In this document: positions 12,849 to 49,920 of the stretch, piece after piece | Numbering within the stretch: the stretch's first letter is position 1 | How the letters are laid out: the number at the start of each line of letters is the position of its first letter | DNA from: a virus | Length of the DNA stretch: 50,578 nt | Strand: one strand, 5' to 3' | UHGV virus genome: UHGV-1367765 | Translations under genes and position numbers: made by a program | Notes under the pieces: generated by a model | Seen by the model: the letters and a program-made list of their open reading frames with translations, nothing else | The model's database searches: none | What the model was told of the DNA's origin: nothing

Positions 12849-13198
12849 TGGAGCCATACAGCCTCACACTCGATGAGGCCTGTCATTTTCTTAAGATATC
12901 CAGACCGACTGCCATTAACTGGATACGCACAGGGCGTCTTCAGGCAACACGCAAAGATCCCACTAAGAATAAATCTCCTTACCTCACAACACGACAAGCC
13001 TGCATTGCGGCTCTTCAGTCTCCGCTGCATACTGTCCAGGTGAGCGCGGGTGATGGCATAACAGAGGAAAGAAAATGTCACTCTTCCGCAGAGGTGAAAT
13101 ATGGTACGCCAGTTTCACATTGCCGAACGGTAAAAGATTTAAACAGTCTCTTGGAACAAAGGACAAAAGGCAGGCGACAGAACTCCATGACAAGCTAA
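12848..13198 (+). CDS. xis: excisionase-like DNA-binding protein
   Basis: HTH-like N-terminus ([26 protein letters not shown]); immediately upstream of and overlapping int. Confidence 0.5.
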
Positions 13199-14238
13199 AG
13201 GCTGAAGCATGGCGGGTCAGCAAACTTGGTGAAATACCTGATATAACGTTCGAGGAAGCGTGTGTCAGGTGGCTTGAAGAGAAAGCACATAAAAAATCAC
13301 TGGACGATGACAAAAGCCGGATCGGATTCTGGCTTCAACATTTCGCAGGAATGCAACTAAGAGACATTACTGAATCAAAAATTTATTCAGCAATGCAGAA
13401 AATGACGAACCGGCGTCATGAGGAAAACTGGAAACTCAGGGCAGAAGCATGCAGAAAAAAAGGGAAACCTGTTCCAGAATACACGCCAAAACCAGCGTCC
13501 GTTGCAACGAAGGCTACGCATCTTTCATTTATAAAGGCCCTACTAAGAGCCGCAGAGCGTGAATGGAAAATGCTGGATAAGGCACCAATTATTAAAGTGC
13601 CTCAACCAAAGAATAAACGGATCCGCTGGCTGGAGCCCCATGAAGCACAAAGGCTGATTGATGAATGTCCGGAGCCATTAAAGTCTGTTGTTGAATTTGC
13701 ACTGGCAACAGGCTTAAGACGCTCGAACATCATCAACCTTGAATGGCAACAAATAGACATGCAGCGCCGGGTGGCATGGATAAACCCGGAAGAGAGTAAA
13801 TCAAACCGCGCAATTGGCGTTGCGCTGAATGATACTGCATGTCGCGTTTTGAAAAAACAAATCGGGAATCATCACCGTTGGGTATTTGTGTACAAGGAAA
13901 GCTGTACCAAACCAGACGGAACGAAAGCGCCAACAGTAAGGAAGATGCGGTATGACGCAAACACAGCCTGGAAAGCGGCGCTGAGACGGGCTGGTATTGA
14001 TGATTTCAGATTTCACGACTTGAGACACACCTGGGCAAGTTGGCTGGTTCAAGCCGGAGTCCCGTTGTCAGTGTTACAGGAAATGGGAGGCTGGGAGTCT
14101 ATCGAAATGGTTCGTCGATATGCTCACCTTGCACCTAATCACCTTACCGAACACGCACGGCAAATAGACTCGATCCTGAACCCATCGGTCCCAAATTTGT
14201 CCCAGTCAAAAAATAAGGAAGGTACTAATGATGTGTAA
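13075..14238 (+). CDS. int: tyrosine integrase (lambdoid Int family)
   Basis: 387 aa with the R..HxxR..Y catalytic pattern ([10 protein letters not shown]...VRRYAH); very similar to E. coli lambdoid prophage integrases as recalled; 3' end faces the att core. Confidence 0.9.
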
Positions 14239-35464: not shown

Positions 35465-35571
35465 TATTGGCTCCGTTTATCCGTTAAAAGGGATATCAGT
35501 TAAGTTATCCCGTGTAGGGTATAAGCCATTATCAAAGCCATTCTGCAAGGAATGGCTTTTGTGATGGCAAT

Positions 35572-38258: not shown

Positions 38259-38334
38259 TGGTGCTGGTTAACGGACTTGAACCGCTACCCATTCGCTTAC
38301 AAGGCGACCGCTCTACCATTGGAGCTAAACCAGC
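38259..38334 (-). tRNA. tRNA-Thr (anticodon UGU inferred)
   Basis: Hand-folded cloverleaf: 7-bp acceptor stem, D-stem GCTC/GAGC, anticodon loop CTTGTAA, T-loop TTCAAGT, 3' ACCA. Confidence 0.55.
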
Positions 38335-38339
38335 ATGTT

Positions 38340-38414
38340 TGGCGGGACAGCGTGGACTCGAACCACGATAAGAAGGTTAACAGCCTTCCGTAATGACCTT
38401 TATACGACTGACCC
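38340..38414 (-). tRNA. tRNA-like gene, anticodon GUU (Asn) inferred; possibly degenerate
   Basis: Cloverleaf with anticodon loop CTGTTAA, T-arm CGTGG-TTCGAGT-CCACG, 3' GCCA, but a U-U mismatch in the acceptor stem and a 3-bp D-stem. Confidence 0.4.
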
Positions 38415-45171: not shown

Positions 45172-46524
<1,353 letters not shown>

Positions 46525-46641: not shown

Positions 46642-46686
46642 TAATTTTAAGCCATCAGCAGGACGCACTAACCACCATGAAGGTGA

Positions 46687-46717
46687 CGCTCTTAAAAATT
46701 AAGCCCTGAAGAAGGGC
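46687..46717 (+). promoter_or_regulatory. nutL (boxA CGCTCTTAA plus boxB GCCCTGAAGAAGGGC)
   Basis: Canonical boxA and boxB hairpin upstream of N. Confidence 0.7.
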
Positions 46718-46985
46718 AGCATTCAAAGCAGAAAGCTTTGGGGTGTGGTGAAGCCAGCTAGTCACTGGCAAGTGCTTACCTACTGTTGAGCGGTGAAGCG
46801 CTCCCAACGCTAGCAATAGCGTGGACGAGATGGGGAGCCGCGGGCGATAAGGCCGCCATAACGCGCACGTTGTCGCATGGAAAAATCGCTGGGGTGCCGG
46901 TTATACCCCTCCGAATGAGACTCAACAAGCTGGAGCTAGACTACCAGCCACCACACCACCAAAGCTAACTGACAGGAGAATCCAG

Positions 46986-47312
46986 ATGGATGCACAAACA
47001 CGCCGCCGCGAACGTCGCGCAGAGAAACAGGCTCAATGGAAAGCAGCAAATCCCCTGTTGGTTGGGGTAAGCGCAAAACCAGTTAACCGCCCTATTCTCT
47101 CGCTGAATCGCAAACCGAAATCACGAGTAGACAGCGCACTGAATCCGATAGACCTTACGGTGCTGGCTGAATACCACGAACAGATTGAAAGCAACCTGCA
47201 ACGTATTGAACGCAAGAATCAGCGCACATGGTACAGCAAGCCACGCAGTGAAATGGGTGTGACTTGTGTTGGTCGCCAGAAAATGAAATTAGGTAGCAAA
47301 CCACTTATTTGA
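46986..47312 (+). CDS. N: antiterminator N
   Basis: MDAQTRRRERRAEKQAQWKAANPLLVGVSAKPVNRP... matches lambda N (arginine-rich motif). Confidence 0.85.
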   Translation: MDAQTRRRERRAEKQAQWKAANPLLVGVSAKPVNRPILSLNRKPKSRVDSALNPIDLTVLAEYHEQIESNLQRIERKNQRTWYSKPRSEMGVTCVGRQKMKLGSKPLI

Positions 47313-47320
47313 GGTGAGAT

Positions 47321-47572
47321 ATGGAATTTCATGAAAGTGCGATTTGTGATTTTCGCGCTAACGCAAATTCAGTAAAACCACAGCCAATTGCAGTTCTTTT
47401 TAAAACAATGGGTGCGTGGGCTGTTTTATGCTTCGCCGCTGATGACACTGACGCAAGAATGGCAATAGGCCAAGAGATGGAGATGGACCCGACAAACGAT
47501 GAATTCATAATTTATGGCGCTCCATCTAATTACTTACTTGATACCTGCAACATTTACAATAAGGCTGCCTGA
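47321..47572 (+). CDS. hypothetical early protein (83 aa)
   Basis: GAGGTGAG RBS; first gene after N. Confidence 0.45.
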   Translation: MEFHESAICDFRANANSVKPQPIAVLFKTMGAWAVLCFAADDTDARMAIGQEMEMDPTNDEFIIYGAPSNYLLDTCNIYNKAA

Positions 47573-47743
47573 TGGTGGCCTTTATTTTTGGCCGTAAATA
47601 ATAGAGGTGAAGATGAACGCAGTTGAATTTACAAAATGGATGGCAGAGCAAGATATCACAGGAGCCGACGAAAAGGCTGTGTACTACATGGCTCTGCTAT
47701 GGATTCACAAAGCAAAAGAGGCTGCAAATGCTCTTGGAGGTGA

Positions 47744-47935
47744 GTGATGAAAGTAAAAATAACTGCTTCTAATACCAGTTTTATTAGTGTTGGTGATATT
47801 ACAGAAGTAATAACAAACCATGATGGAACACAAGTTATGTGGTCTGATTTTTGTAAAAGATATGAGCGAGTTAGTTGGTGTAAAAACGTATGGGGAGTCG
47901 AATACGAAGAATTACCTGAAATGCATGACGAATAA
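47744..47935 (+). CDS. hypothetical early protein (63 aa)
   Basis: ORF in the pL operon overlapping the stop of a small unlisted upstream ORF. Confidence 0.35.
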   Translation: MMKVKITASNTSFISVGDITEVITNHDGTQVMWSDFCKRYERVSWCKNVWGVEYEELPEMHDE

Positions 47936-48030
47936 GCACTGTGTATTCATTCCAACGAGTGAATACACGGAGCAATGTCGCTCGTAACTAAACAGGAGCC
48001 GACTTGTTCTGATTATTGGAAATCTTCTTT

Positions 48031-48058
48031 GCCCTCCAGTGTGAGGGCAGTTTTTTTT
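48031..48058 (+). terminator. Rho-independent terminator (tL-like)
   Basis: GCCCTC-cagtgt-GAGGGC followed by a run of 8 T. Confidence 0.6.
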
Positions 48059-48071
48059 GACGGAGTAAACG

Positions 48072-48320
48072 ATGATAAAAACTGATTACCCTGCAGATCT
48101 TAAACAAAAAGTAATAACAGCAATTAAATGCTCTTTTATCTCATGTCGTACAGATGAAGAACGATATGTCGTTGAGTGTGCAATTGTCGAGTTTCTCACA
48201 GCGATGGAATTTACCGCTGCAGAATCAATAGATGTATTAAAGCAATCAGACGGAAATGATATTGAAACGGATGATGTTATTGACCGACTAATAAAATCAT
48301 TCGAAGAAGAAATAGAGTAG
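48072..48320 (+). CDS. acidic hypothetical early protein (82 aa)
   Basis: ORF after the terminator; acidic C-terminus. Confidence 0.4.
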   Translation: MIKTDYPADLKQKVITAIKCSFISCRTDEERYVVECAIVEFLTAMEFTAAESIDVLKQSDGNDIETDDVIDRLIKSFEEEIE

Positions 48321-48403
48321 CCGCCTGAGCGCGGCTTTACCGCATACCAATAATGCTTCACGAGAGGCATTTTCGTTATGCAATCAAATATAAGGAGTTA
48401 CCC

Positions 48404-48538
48404 ATGATGCACTTTCAGCTCGCGGGTAGCGGCGTCATGTCCGCTTTCTACCCGCACGAATCTGAATTATCACGCCGAGTTAAACAATTAATCAGAGCAG
48501 CAAAGAAACAACTGGAGGCGTTATGCGCAATGAAATAG
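48404..48538 (+). CDS. CIII-like protein (protease-inhibitor regulator of CII)
   Basis: AAGGAG RBS; short protein with an amphipathic helix (SELSRRVKQLIRAAKKQLEA) in the cIII position. Confidence 0.4.
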   Translation: MMHFQLAGSGVMSAFYPHESELSRRVKQLIRAAKKQLEALCAMK

Positions 48539-48931
48539 CCATCAATCACCAGATGCTTCGTGCTGCACAGAACAAAGCAGTAATAGCCAGATTTATTGGT
48601 GATTCCAAAATGTGGCTTGAAGCAAATAAAGCGATGAAATCAGCTATCAACCTTCCGTGGTATCGCAGGAAATGAGTTTTACAGATAACTGGTCAGACGA
48701 AGAATTCATTCGTCAGATGAAAGAATTAATCGGTAACGAAGGAGATATTCATGTCACTTGCAACCACAGTGAAGGAGAGCAAGTTACAGAGGCGCATGTA
48801 CACGCAGAAAGCTCTCTGGTATCGCCATAATGGTGACCGCGAAGGAATGCGGGTATGCCTTAACTTGTCCCGAGTCGAAGTATTAAATCAGCGTTATTTC
48901 CTTGGGCCGTGTCCATTCTGAGAACAATCAT

Positions 48932-49537
48932 ATGAGCAAAGAATTTTACGCAAGACTGGCAGCTATTCAGGAGAATCTGAACGCGCCAAAGAATCAGTAC
49001 AACTCATTCGGTAAATATAAATACAGAAGCTGCGAAGACATTCTTGAAGGCGTTAAGCCGTTACTGAATGGCCTGTTTTTATCAATCAGCGATGAAGTTG
49101 TGTTGATTGGTGATCGGTATTACGTGAAAGCCACGGCAACTATTACCGATGGCGAAAACAGCCATACGGCAACCGCTCTTGCACGAGAGGAAGAAAGCAA
49201 GAAAGGAATGGATTCTGCACAAGTTACGGGAGCTACAAGCTCTTATGCACGCAAGTATTGCCTCAATGGTTTGTTCGGCATTGATGATGCGAAAGATGCA
49301 GATACAGACGAGCATAAACATCAGCAGAACGCAGCAGCAAAGCAATCAAAACCATCACCTACATCTGAACAGGTTCTAAAAGCATTCACTGACGCAGCAA
49401 TGCAGAAAAACACCGTGGAAGATCTTAAACAGGCGTTCGCCAAAGCGTGGAAGATGCTCGAAGGCACACCGGAGCAGCACAAAGCGCAGGACGTTTACAA
49501 CATCAGACGAGACGAATTAGAAGGAGCGTCTGCTTAA
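48932..49537 (+). CDS. erf: Erf single-strand annealing recombinase (P22 Erf type)
   Basis: MSKEFYARLAAIQENLNAPKNQYNSFGKYKYRSCEDILEG... matches P22 Erf as recalled. Confidence 0.85.
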   Translation: MSKEFYARLAAIQENLNAPKNQYNSFGKYKYRSCEDILEGVKPLLNGLFLSISDEVVLIGDRYYVKATATITDGENSHTATALAREEESKKGMDSAQVTGATSSYARKYCLNGLFGIDDAKDADTDEHKHQQNAAAKQSKPSPTSEQVLKAFTDAAMQKNTVEDLKQAFAKAWKMLEGTPEQHKAQDVYNIRRDELEGASA

Positions 49538-49920
49538 TGGCACATTCGATTACTGTAAGACTAAACAAGCCCGCAAGAGAGTTTCAGGCCGGGGAAAATA
49601 TCGGATTCAACATCCGTGCTGGCGTTCAGTATTACGATCGCCAGACAAAAAAGAAAGAATGGACAAACTACAGCGCCGTTGTATTTGCCAAGCCGGGAGC
49701 GCAAGCGGATTACTACCGTAGCGTTCTTGTTGAAGGTGGCATTGTGGAAATTACCGGAGAAAACATCAGGGTTGATGTTTATCAGGGGCAAAATGGTCAA
49801 TCAATCACTCTTGAATTACTGAATGCAAAGATTGGATTTGCAGCTTCAGGAAATGGCCCGCAGCAGCAAAGTAGTAACCAGCAGAACACTCCTGTATACG
49901 ACGATTCCATCCCATTCTGA
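49537..49920 (+). CDS. ssb: phage single-stranded DNA-binding protein
   Basis: OB-fold-like N-terminus and acidic C-terminal tail ending DDSIPF; start overlaps the erf stop (TAATG). Confidence 0.7.
   Translation: MAHSITVRLNKPAREFQAGENIGFNIRAGVQYYDRQTKKKEWTNYSAVVFAKPGAQADYYRSVLVEGGIVEITGENIRVDVYQGQNGQSITLELLNAKIGFAASGNGPQQQSSNQQNTPVYDDSIPF

What the first reader, a model, noticed from the sequence alone, without database searches (positions are those of the whole stretch)
47321..48840. Cluster of small early ORFs between N and erf, with an internal terminator
At least six ORFs of 44-83 aa with good RBSs lie here, two of them not in the ORF track, plus a cIII-like gene and a strong terminator at 48031-48058. 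This is where lambdoid phages keep kil, cIII, ral, abc and sieB-type host-takeover and anti-defence genes. None match the lambda versions by eye.
Basis: inference. Interest (0 to 1): 0.4.

Follow-up and report, generated by a model that had tools for sequence, protein, structure and literature searches.

The report
Ordinary lambdoid early-left accessory gene cluster

Summary
Between N (46986-47312) and erf (48932-49537) lie eight small + strand ORFs. Seven have strong ribosome-binding sites, and all eight match PHROG families. There are two terminator-like hairpins.

This is the N-antiterminated PL operon, but two points need correcting:
- **"None match lambda" is wrong.** N is 90% identical to lambda N. 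nutL is lambda's. cIII and Kil hit their Pfam families (4.6e-30, 1.7e-20) and carry the UniRef names of the HK022 proteins.
- **The "strong terminator" at 48029-48058 is lambda tL2a.** This is the 3' end of PreS/LPR1, the Hfq-dependent small RNA that raises host DnaN. The block 47936-48056 is 98% identical to lambda, and its single-stranded stretch pairs with the dnaN leader.

Four ORFs remain unknown and sit in exchangeable slots bounded by conserved RNA elements:
- A83 takes the ral slot.
- B46 and C63 are an insertion.
- D82 takes the ea10/gene-17 slot.

Of the overlapping pair before erf:
- F56 is a conserved gene (dN/dS about 0.17). It is found directly upstream of three unrelated annealing-protein families.
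- E52 looks like an unconstrained arf remnant.

Every protein is already in public databases with the exact same sequence. Interest is low.

The parts
46654..46718 (+). Start of the PL transcript and nutL (boxA CGCTCTTAA 46687-46695; boxB GCCCTGAAGAAGGGC 46703-46717).
   Evidence: Window 46653-46747 is 97.9% identical to lambda 35583-35489. The lambda record annotates nutL at 35518-35534. The sequence was read, and the boxB hairpin was seen.
46986..47312 (+). Antiterminator N, lambda type (context, just outside the finding).
   Evidence: Pfam N36 1.6e-26. 89.8% identical to lambda N over 108 aa.
47321..47572 (+). A83, an 83-aa acidic protein of unknown function, in the slot that ral occupies in lambda, Sf6 and P22.
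   Evidence: phrog_2471 at 1.4e-61. Homologues down to 70% identity in Citrobacter, Klebsiella and Enterobacter share an invariant core. In 80 related loci, ral is present in 19, A83 in 5, and both in none. No Pfam, NCBIfam, PADLOC or PDB match. The AF2 model is unusable, pLDDT 52.
47561..47590 (+). Terminator-like hairpin 1, overlapping the last codons (…NKAA*) of A83. It is a conserved boundary block.
   Evidence: Window 47556-47605 is 88% identical to lambda 34103-34055, the 3' end of ral plus the sequence downstream. In phage mEp234 a rho-independent terminator is annotated at the corresponding position, over the 3' end of the A83 homologue.
47613..47747 (+). B46, a 44-aa protein of unknown function; first gene of a two-gene insertion.
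   Evidence: phrog_24660 at 4.4e-35. SD -7.1. The segment 47606-47935 has no counterpart in lambda, where the two flanking blocks are 10 bp apart. It is absent from 50,697 phage records. It is present in 27 of 5,426 complete E. coli genomes, annotated as two hypothetical CDSs.
47747..47935 (+). C63, a 62-aa protein of unknown function. Its start overlaps the B46 stop (TGATG).
   Evidence: phrog_10407 at 7.9e-46; it also matches the C-terminal part of phrog_16117. SD -10.6. It occurs without B46 in 5 of 7 related loci.
47938..47972 (+). Perfect 14-bp hairpin just 5' of the small RNA. Possibly a processing or stability element (inference).
   Evidence: dG -21.9 kcal/mol, z -7.0. Invariant in lambda, Sf6, HK446 and H-19B.
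47971..48058 (+). PreS (LPR1) small RNA, with the lambda tL2a terminator (stem 48029-48050, U-tract 48051-48058) as its 3' end. The 5' end is placed from the published size of about 88 nt and is not mapped here.
   Evidence: Window 47936-48056 is 98.3% identical to lambda 34045-33925. The alignment with lambda, Sf6, HK446 and H-19B is invariant apart from one loop base and the bases at the foot of the terminator stem. Present in 73 of 80 related loci at 94-99%. The paper places LPR1 between ral and ea10, ending at tL2a. The Sf6 record marks 'tL2A' and a 'boundary sequence' at this spot. The stretch 48006-48030 pairs with the dnaN leader at -25.2 kcal/mol, reached by 0 of 1000 shuffles.
48072..48320 (+). 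D82, an 82-aa very acidic four-helix protein of unknown function, in the slot that holds ea10 (lambda), gene 17 (P22, H-19B) or gp33 (Sf6).
   Evidence: phrog_14587, labelled 'anti-restriction protein' with no experimental basis that I could find. Fifteen remote homologues at 29-50% identity. AF2 pLDDT 89.7, four helices. No PDB fold match, best E 0.96. In BFVD it matches only uncharacterised Salmonella phage proteins. It never co-occurs with Ea10, gp17 or gp33 in 80 loci.
48320..48403 (+). cIII leader with two small hairpins; lambda-like.
   Evidence: Window 48320-48380 is 88.7% identical to lambda 33544-33483, the 3' end of ea10 and the region upstream of cIII. Folds; neither hairpin stands out from shuffles.
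48404..48538 (+). cIII, HK022 type; inhibitor of the host protease FtsH.
   Evidence: Pfam cIII 4.6e-30. The exact sequence carries the UniRef name RPC3_BPHK0. SD AAGGAG, -8.8.
48523..48675 (+). Kil, HK022 type; host cell-division inhibitor.
   Evidence: Pfam Lambda_Kil 1.7e-20. 100% identical to Sf6 gp31 and 55% to lambda Kil. The exact sequence carries the UniRef name VKIL_BPHK0.
48672..48830 (+). E52 (= Sf6 gp30; the Sf6 record calls gp30 similar to HK97 gp42.1). Probably an arf-like 5' remnant that reads out of frame into F56. It may be translated by coupling to kil (ATGA overlap), but it shows no sign of selection.
   Evidence: In its unique part there are 5 synonymous and 14 non-synonymous variants, one of them a nonsense change. 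The frame that overlaps F56 gives dN/dS 2.1. It is absent from more distant F56 loci, and its tail differs in L160 and L161. No homologue in the Erf-selected loci apart from L099 and L154, which carry this same near-identical module. Its N-terminus resembles Arf: hhalign P 3e-4 over 23 columns, probability 39%. Weak SD, -2.8.
48751..48921 (+). F56 (= Sf6 gp29; the Sf6 record calls gp29 similar to HK97 gp42). A conserved 56-aa basic protein that ends 10 nt before the erf ATG.
   Evidence: Homologues at 37-50% identity lie directly before erf in Yersinia, Erwinia, Cedecea and an Enterobacterales MAG; these loci were chosen through Erf, so the sample is not biased towards F56. It also lies 8-13 nt before Rad52_Rad22-type and AAA_24-type annealing-protein genes. 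dN/dS median 0.17, against 1.3 and 2.1 in the other two frames. Strong SD, -8.8.
48932..49537 (+). erf, single-strand annealing protein (context); its own SD is weak.
   Evidence: Pfam ERF 2e-44. 75% identical to P22 Erf. SD -2.7.

Best explanation
The interval is the proximal part of the N-dependent early-left (PL) operon of a mosaic lambdoid prophage.

How it works:
1. Transcription starts at PL (about 46654), crosses a lambda-type nutL and makes N.
2. Without N, RNA polymerase stops at hairpin 1 (47561-47590) or at tL2a (48029-48058). Stopping at tL2a, followed by 5' trimming, would release the Hfq-binding small RNA PreS/LPR1. PreS pairs with the dnaA-dnaN mRNA just upstream of dnaN and raises DnaN, which helps phage DNA replication.
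3. With N bound, polymerase reads through to D82, cIII (blocks FtsH and so protects CII), kil (blocks host division), F56, erf, an SSB-like gene and abc2.

The conserved non-coding blocks are hairpin 1, the PreS/tL2a block and the cIII leader. They act as fixed joints. Between them, accessory genes are swapped by recombination:
- A83 stands where ral stands in lambda.
- B46 and C63 are an extra insertion.
- D82 stands where ea10 or gene 17 stands.

F56 is a real, conserved small basic protein that heads the recombination module. E52 is most likely a leftover arf 5' end.

Shown here: the identities, synteny, selection signatures and RNA pairing. Taken from the literature: the functions of cIII, Kil, N and PreS. 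Inferred: expression in this prophage, and the roles of A83, B46, C63, D82 and F56.
For: - Map against lambda, P22, Sf6, HK446 and H-19B.
- N and nutL.
- cIII and Kil.
- PreS: identity to lambda; published location, size, Hfq dependence, dnaN target and lytic-only expression; pairing with the dnaN leader recomputed here.
- Both terminators are annotated in mEp234, and tL2A with a 'boundary sequence' in Sf6.
- Slot exclusivity in 80 IMG/VR loci.
- F56 conservation, placement and dN/dS.
- E52 lacks constraint.
- RBS strengths.
- Erf and Abc2 downstream.
Against: - Nothing here shows that this prophage is inducible, or that any of these RNAs or proteins is made.
- The 5' end of PreS is placed only from the published size. 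Rfam 15 has no model to test it against.
- N antitermination should lower termination at tL2a. How much PreS is made once N is active is therefore unclear.
- Hairpin 1 is a modest terminator (z -2.1; 6 of 200 shuffles fold as well).
- The IMG/VR panel was selected for identical F56, so it is not an unbiased sample of lambdoid phages.
- The functions of A83, B46, C63, D82 and F56 rest on position alone.
Confidence: 0.85

Rival explanations
1. The unknown ORFs (A83, B46, C63, D82) are new anti-defence or host-takeover proteins. For example, A83 would be a functional substitute for Ral, and acidic D82 an anti-restriction or DNA-mimic protein.
For: - A83 and ral are mutually exclusive occupants of one slot: 19, 5 and 0 loci.
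- D82 shares its slot with ea10, gene 17 and gp33. By my own count it has 20 acidic and 9 basic residues in 82. It folds confidently as a small helical protein.
- PHROGs labels the D82 family 'anti-restriction'.
- All four have strong RBSs and conserved families.
Against: - No sequence, profile or fold similarity to Ral, Ocr, ArdA or any characterised protein.
- I found no experiment behind the PHROG label.
- Sharing a slot shows exchangeability, not a shared function. The functions of Ea10 and gp17 are themselves poorly known.
- This reading is compatible with the best explanation rather than opposed to it.
Confidence: 0.3
2. E52 is a true Arf-like accessory recombination protein, and E52 and F56 are a genuine overlapping gene pair, as annotated in Sf6 (genes 30 and 29).
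For: - E52 starts at an ATGA overlap with the kil stop.
- Its N-terminus (SDEEFIRQMKELI) resembles Arf (SDEEFIALIS): hhalign P 3e-4.
- It has its own PHROG family.
- It is kept at 92-98% identity in Shimwellia, E. coli and Sf6.
Against: - 5 synonymous against 14 non-synonymous variants, including a stop, in its unique part.
- dN/dS 2.1 in its frame across the overlap.
- Its C-terminal tail changes in L160 and L161, and the ORF is absent where F56 is 66-79% identical.
- It lacks the Arf C-terminal WDEFAGYY motif.
- Weak SD.
Confidence: 0.25
3. F56 has no function as a protein. Its translation only delivers ribosomes to the poorly initiated annealing-protein gene, and its conserved 3' end is a recombination joint.
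For: - In this window erf has a weak SD (-2.7) and starts 10 nt after the F56 stop.
- F56 precedes three unrelated annealing-protein families, as a module joint would.
- The best-conserved part is the 3' end, NQRYFLGPCPF.
Against: - dN/dS 0.06-0.23 along the whole ORF.
- Amino-acid motifs (ALxYRxxG, the C-terminal FLGPxPF) persist at 37-50% identity while synonymous sites are saturated.
- In other loci the annealing-protein gene has its own GAGGTG SD.
Confidence: 0.2
4. The 47936-48058 block is only a terminator and recombination 'boundary sequence' in this prophage, not a working small RNA.
For: - Sf6 annotators described the block as a boundary sequence plus terminator.
- It separates exchangeable modules.
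Against: - Within the inferred 88-nt RNA, the only differences from the experimentally characterised lambda RNA lie after position 48048, at the foot of the terminator stem and in the U-tract.
- The 25-nt complementarity to the dnaN leader is intact.
- Variation across 73 loci is concentrated in the terminator loop and at the foot of the stem.
Confidence: 0.08

Closest known systems
Phage lambda early-left operon, segment N - ral - PreS/tL2a - ea10 - cIII - kil
   Same: The same PL start and nutL, the same N (90%), the same PreS/tL2a block (98%), the same ral-3' and ea10-3' boundary blocks (88-89%), and the same order of cIII then kil with overlapping ends.
   Different: sieB, orf28 and ral are replaced by A83. 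B46 and C63 are inserted where lambda has 10 bp. ea10 is replaced by D82. cIII and kil are of the HK022 sequence type. gam-bet-exo is replaced by an F56-erf-SSB-like-abc2 module.
Early-left regions of coliphages HK446, HK022 and HK97 and of Shigella phage Sf6
   Same: HK446 has D82, cIII, kil, E52 and erf at 96% DNA identity from 47936 onward. Kil and F56 are 100% identical, and E52 98% identical, to Sf6 gp31, gp29 and gp30. cIII and Kil carry the UniRef names of the HK022 proteins.
   Different: After N, HK446 has an opposite-strand gene instead of A83, B46 and C63. Sf6 has gp36, ral, gp34 and gp33. No phage record and only one of 5,426 E. coli genomes covers 80% or more of the arrangement queried.
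Phage P22 recombination module arf - erf - abc1 - abc2
   Same: Erf is 75% identical. By my own comparison of the two sequences, Abc2 is close to 90% identical to P22 Abc2; Pfam scores it 4.9e-61. In both, a small gene is tightly joined to the erf start.
   Different: The small gene here is basic F56, not acidic Arf. There is no abc1. Among ten Enterobacterales Erf loci, five have Arf-type and five have F56-type genes.
Lambda small RNA PreS (LPR1), Silverman et al., bioRxiv 10.1101/2024.10.31.621285
   Same: Sequence, terminator, position in the operon, and complementarity to the dnaN leader.
   Different: Two base differences at the foot of the terminator stem, and a longer U-tract (T8 against T6). 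Different flanking genes. Expression and Hfq binding were not tested here.

Membership tests
PreS / LPR1 small RNA (lambda) | [quoted passage not shown] | tested here: met
   98.3% over 121 nt with no gaps. Within the inferred 88-nt RNA, the only differences lie after 48048, at the foot of the terminator stem and in the U-tract.
PreS / LPR1 small RNA (lambda) | 3' end formed by a G+C-rich hairpin plus U-tail (tL2a), inside the early-left operon between the ral slot and the ea10 slot. | tested here: met
   Stem 48029-48050 plus U8. It lies between the A83/B46/C63 genes and D82.
PreS / LPR1 small RNA (lambda) | An unpaired seed that base-pairs with the dnaA-dnaN mRNA. | tested here: met
   48006-48030 is unpaired in the predicted fold. 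It pairs at -46 to -17 of the dnaN AUG, -25.2 kcal/mol, the best site in 3 kb, reached by 0 of 1000 shuffles.
PreS / LPR1 small RNA (lambda) | Hfq binding, accumulation in the lytic cycle, and up-regulation of DnaN. | not testable with these tools
   Needs a northern blot, RIL-seq or a reporter assay.
cIII (Pfam PF08134) | Match to the family profile above the curated cut-off. | tested here: met
   103.6 bits against a cut-off of 25, E 4.6e-30. Same sequence cluster name as HK022 cIII.
cIII (Pfam PF08134) | Inhibition of FtsH and stabilisation of CII. | not testable with these tools
   Function is taken from established work on lambda cIII.
Kil (Pfam PF06301) | Match to the family profile above the cut-off, and a position directly after cIII that overlaps its end. 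| tested here: met
   72.6 bits against a cut-off of 27.6. 55% identical to lambda Kil. Overlaps cIII by 16 nt.
Lambda N / nut antitermination | An arginine-rich N-terminal peptide together with the cognate boxA and boxB in the transcript. | tested here: met
   Pfam N36 1.6e-26. boxA CGCTCTTAA and boxB GCCCTGAAGAAGGGC at 46687-46717.
Ral (considered for A83) | Sequence similarity to lambda or P22 Ral. | tested here: not met
   No BLASTP hit even at E 10. Only the last residues (NKAA) and the downstream hairpin are shared, as a DNA boundary block.
Arf of P22 (considered for E52 and F56) | A small acidic protein with the C-terminal WDEFAGYY-type motif whose stop overlaps the erf ATG. | tested here: not met
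   E52 lacks the motif and ends 100 nt before erf. F56 is basic and unrelated.
Arf of P22 (considered for E52 and F56) | N-terminal D-E-x-F-I segment. | tested here: inconclusive
   E52 residues 1-23 against the Arf alignment: hhalign P 3e-4, probability 39%.
Anti-restriction proteins (PHROG label for D82) | Homology or fold similarity to a characterised anti-restriction protein (Ocr, ArdA, Ral and the like). | tested here: not met
   No Pfam, NCBIfam or PDB sequence match. Best Foldseek PDB E-value 0.96. BFVD matches only uncharacterised proteins.
Known anti-phage defence systems (PADLOC) | Profile match for any of the small ORFs. | tested here: not met
   No family matched any of nine proteins.

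The most novel reading that the evidence does not exclude
F56 (the family of Sf6 gp29, which the Sf6 record calls similar to HK97 gp42) is a general cofactor or regulator of phage recombination modules. In Enterobacterales it sits 8-13 nt upstream of the first gene of the module, whether that gene is an Erf, a Rad52-like or a Sak4/AAA_24 annealing protein. It alternates with P22-type Arf at Erf loci. It would therefore act through something the three systems share, such as host SSB, RecBCD or the ssDNA substrate, rather than through one annealing protein. A recent survey of lambdoid recombination modules, in the sections I read, does not list such a gene.
Probability: 0.3. Interest if true: 0.4.

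Novelty: already known. Interest (0 to 1): 0.2.

Why it matters
It matters little for discovery. The region is a textbook lambdoid early-left operon, and every product is already in public databases.

Three modest points are useful:
1. The "internal terminator" that genome annotators usually mark only as a terminator or boundary sequence is the PreS small RNA. It is conserved almost base for base while the genes on both sides are swapped. Prophage annotation should record it.
2. The conserved RNA blocks define three exchangeable slots. These give a short, well-delimited list of candidate accessory or anti-defence genes to test: A83, B46, C63 and D82.
3. The 56-aa F56 family is tightly linked to three unrelated annealing-protein families. 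It is a cheap target for anyone studying or engineering phage recombineering modules.

Tried and rejected
- **Structure of A83.** AF2 with 12 homologues gave pLDDT 52, so no fold search was made.
- **Structure of D82.** The model is good (pLDDT 89.7), but Foldseek found nothing informative in PDB or BFVD. The profile search against PDB sequences was also empty.
- **Profiles of F56 and A83 against PDB sequences.** Nothing below E 0.09.
- **NCBIfam and PADLOC.** No hits for any small ORF.
- **Rfam 15.** No family covers the PreS block; only two chance-level hits appeared.
- **Programmed frameshift joining E52 to F56.** Considered because several 76-82-aa E52-F56 fusion proteins exist in databases. 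Rejected because the junctions fall at many different codons, and most of these clusters are seen on one to three contigs. The pattern fits scattered 1-nt indels (my inference).
- **The PHROG label 'recombinase' for E52 and F56.** Probably annotation bleed (my inference). The 90% cluster of F56 contains unrelated Erf fragments.
- **ORF x36 (47975-48085).** Rejected as a gene. It spans the small RNA and the terminator, and its tblastn 'conservation' is the conservation of that DNA block.
- **The 94-aa antisense ORF 48086-48370.** Rejected, because remote homologues conserve the D82 frame.
- **B46 and C63 as a toxin-antitoxin pair.** Not supported. C63 usually occurs without B46, and neither matches a known family.
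- **Whole-RNA duplex energy of PreS with dnaN.** Not informative: 72% of shuffles scored as well. Only the unpaired stretch was used.
- **Literature.** Searches for protein accessions of homologues annotated in E. coli WCHEC040047 and for 'HK97 gp42' found nothing. The original boundary-sequence papers are not in the library.
Full report
**Observation.** The + strand between N (46986-47312) and erf (48932-49537) carries eight small ORFs:
- A83, 47321-47572
- B46, 47613-47747 (44 aa from its ATG)
- C63, 47747-47935 (62 aa)
- D82, 48072-48320
- cIII, 48404-48538 (44 aa)
- Kil, 48523-48675
- E52, 48672-48830
- F56, 48751-48921

Seven have Shine-Dalgarno pairing energies of -6.1 to -10.6 kcal/mol. 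The background start codons in the region average -2.7, and E52 and erf are weak at -2.8 and -2.7. All eight match a PHROG family over their full length. All eight exist with exactly the same sequence in public collections, on 8 to more than 1000 contigs each. The terminator at 48029-48058 is real. A second terminator-like hairpin lies at 47561-47590.

**What the region is.** The flanks fix the context:
- A cI-type repressor lies at 45491-46123 (HTH plus Peptidase_S24).
- Window 46653-46747 is 98% identical to lambda 35583-35489, which covers the PL transcript start and nutL. boxA and boxB read CGCTCTTAA and GCCCTGAAGAAGGGC.
- N is 90% identical to lambda N.
- Downstream lie Erf (Pfam 2e-44), an SSB-like 127-aa protein and Abc2 (Pfam 4.9e-61).

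The interval is therefore the proximal part of the N-antiterminated early-left operon of a lambdoid prophage. It is drawn here left to right, which is the reverse of the lambda map.

**Parts that are known.**
- cIII scores 103.6 bits on Pfam cIII, and Kil 72.6 bits on Pfam Lambda_Kil.
- Both exact sequences carry the UniRef names of the HK022 proteins.
- Kil is 100% identical to Sf6 gp31 and 55% identical to lambda Kil.
- From 47936 onward the DNA is 96% identical to phage HK446.

The statement that nothing matches lambda does not hold.

**The terminator is a small RNA.** Window 47936-48056 is 98.3% identical to lambda 34045-33925, the spacer between ral and ea10.
- An alignment with lambda, Sf6, HK446 and H-19B is invariant from 47937 to 48048 apart from one base in the terminator loop, although the coding sequences on both sides are unrelated among these phages.
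- The Sf6 record marks this spot as 'boundary sequence bsq4' and 'terminator, homology to lambda tL2A'.
- Silverman et al. (bioRxiv 10.1101/2024.10.31.621285) showed that this lambda segment encodes LPR1, renamed PreS. It is an Hfq-bound RNA of about 88 nt, processed to about 68 nt, whose 3' end is tL2a. It is made only in the lytic cycle. It pairs with the dnaA-dnaN mRNA, raises dnaN translation and supports phage DNA replication. A review repeats this.
- The predicted fold of the window copy leaves 48006-48030 unpaired. That stretch pairs with the E. coli K-12 dnaN leader at -46 to -17 of the AUG, at -25.2 kcal/mol. This is the best site in the 3-kb dnaA-dnaN region and was reached by none of 1000 shuffles.
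- The block is present in 73 of 80 related viral contigs at 94-99% identity. Variation is concentrated in the terminator loop and at the foot of the stem.
- Rfam 15 has no model for it.
- A perfect 14-bp hairpin (47938-47972, z -7) sits just 5' of the RNA and is equally conserved. Its role is not known.

**Mosaic slots.** Three short blocks are shared with lambda:
- 47556-47605 matches the 3' end of ral plus a hairpin.
- 47936-48056 is the PreS/tL2a block.
- 48320-48380 matches the 3' end of ea10 plus the cIII leader.

Between these blocks the genes differ.
- A83 stands where lambda has sieB, orf28 and ral.
- In lambda the first two blocks are 10 bp apart, and in mEp234 the two annotated terminators are 118 nt apart. 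Here 330 bp carrying B46 and C63 are inserted between them.
- That insert is absent from 50,697 phage records and present in 27 of 5,426 complete E. coli genomes.
- D82 stands where lambda has ea10 and where P22 and H-19B have gene 17.

In 80 IMG/VR loci:

| Slot | Occupant | Loci |
|---|---|---|
| Before hairpin 1 | ral | 19 |
| Before hairpin 1 | A83 | 5 |
| Before hairpin 1 | both ral and A83 | 0 |
| After PreS | Sf6 gp33 type | 24 |
| After PreS | Ea10 | 8 |
| After PreS | gp17 | 5 |
| After PreS | D82 | 5 |

D82 is never found together with the other three. No phage record, and only one E. coli genome, covers 80% or more of the arrangement queried. The combination is rare, but each module is common.

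**The unknown proteins.**
- A83 has an invariant core across Escherichia, Citrobacter, Klebsiella and Enterobacter homologues at 70-99% identity. Its AF2 model was poor.
- D82 has only one 90%-identity family by word-indexed search. A full HMMER scan found 15 relatives at 29-50% identity with a conserved pattern.
- With that alignment, AF2 gives a confident four-helix model for D82, pLDDT 89.7.
- The D82 model matches nothing informative in PDB or BFVD.
- The PHROG label 'anti-restriction protein' for D82 has no support that I could find.
- None of the small proteins hits Pfam, NCBIfam or PADLOC.

Their function remains a positional guess: accessory, possibly anti-defence or host-directed, and expressed only after N acts.

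**E52 and F56.** These two ORFs overlap by 80 nt in different frames, and both are annotated in Sf6 (genes 30 and 29).

Evidence on F56:
- Loci chosen through Erf, and so unbiased for either frame, contain F56 homologues at 37-50% identity. They end 8-10 nt before erf in Yersinia, Erwinia, Cedecea and an Enterobacterales MAG.
- The other five enterobacterial Erf loci carry an acidic P22-Arf-type gene instead.
- F56 relatives at 66-82% identity lie 8-13 nt upstream of Rad52_Rad22-type and AAA_24/Sak4-type annealing-protein genes as well as Erf.
- dN/dS in the F56 frame is 0.06-0.23 (median 0.17).

Evidence on E52:
- The E52 frame gives dN/dS 2.1 over the overlap.
- Its unique part shows 5 synonymous and 14 non-synonymous variants, including a nonsense change.
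- The ORF is absent or has a different tail in more distant loci.
- Its first 23 residues weakly resemble Arf (hhalign P 3e-4).

I read F56 as a real conserved gene at the head of recombination modules. I read E52 as a probable arf 5' remnant. In this window erf has a poor ribosome-binding site 10 nt after the F56 stop, so translational coupling is plausible (inference).

**Mechanism.** The following steps are inferred from the anatomy, with the functions of N, cIII, Kil and PreS taken from the literature.
1. PL fires on induction or infection.
2. Early transcripts end at hairpin 1 or at tL2a. They yield N, A83, B46 and C63 mRNA and, after trimming, PreS.
3. N bound at nutL then carries polymerase through both stops into D82, cIII, kil, F56, erf, the SSB-like gene and abc2.

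Expression was not tested here.

**Comparison and novelty.** The closest systems are the lambda N-to-kil segment, the HK446, HK022, HK97 and Sf6 early-left regions, and the P22 arf-erf-abc module. All defining features that could be tested for N/nut, cIII, Kil and PreS are met. Ral, Arf and anti-restriction membership are not met for A83, E52/F56 and D82 respectively. The kind of feature is already known, and this copy is an ordinary mosaic of catalogued modules. The one observation that may be new is the link of the F56 family to three annealing-protein families. The recent survey of lambdoid recombination modules, in the sections I read, does not mention it.

**Verdict.** The finding is real but ordinary. 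Interest 0.2.

Noticed in passing
window 46120-46524 (+): A 134-aa ORF whose ATG overlaps the cI stop (ATGA). Its N-terminus looks like a signal peptide ([18 protein letters not shown]). It is the counterpart of Sf6 gp38 and HK446_039 (phrog_2651, unknown function) and sits in the slot of lambda rexAB. It may be a lysogen-expressed exclusion or conversion protein. No Pfam or PADLOC hit.
   Followed up: partly
window 38259-38334 and 38340-38414 (-): Two tRNA genes, Thr (tgt) and Asn (gtt), side by side on the minus strand, within the stretch I take to be the prophage.
   Followed up: no
window 49537-49920 (+): A 127-aa protein directly after erf with no Pfam hit. It ends in DDSIPF, like the acidic tip of bacterial SSB, so it is probably a divergent SSB of the recombination module.
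   Followed up: partly
window 47938-47972 (+): A perfect 14-bp hairpin (dG -21.9 kcal/mol, z -7) immediately 5' of the PreS small RNA. It is invariant in lambda, Sf6, HK446 and H-19B, and the passages of the PreS paper that I read do not mention it. It could mark the processing site that creates the 5' end of the RNA.
   Followed up: partly
window 21000-45500: The late genes do not resemble lambda, HK97 or P22. The best phage matches are Citrobacter phage Omnitron (52% coverage, 93% identity), E. coli vB_EcoM phages with a DUF3383 protein, and Salmonella phage SEN34. A lambda-type early region is thus joined to a different virion module.
   Followed up: no
window 13075-14238 (+): A tyrosine integrase (Pfam 3.2e-48) lies far from the PL operon, on the side where the late genes end. 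The integrase expected downstream of abc2 would lie beyond the window end. This one may belong to a neighbouring element.
   Followed up: no
database proteins P0143, P0144, P0147, P0163, P0165, P0166, P0169, P0173 (relatives of window 48672-48921): Several 76-82-aa proteins in public collections are E52-F56 fusions with junctions at different codons. This fits scattered 1-nt indels in assemblies rather than a biological frameshift.
   Followed up: yes
90%-identity cluster of F56 (window 48751-48921): The cluster holding F56 also contains unrelated Erf fragments and has an Erf fragment as its representative. This is a likely source of the misleading 'recombinase' label on PHROG families 1723 and 2123.
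   Followed up: partly
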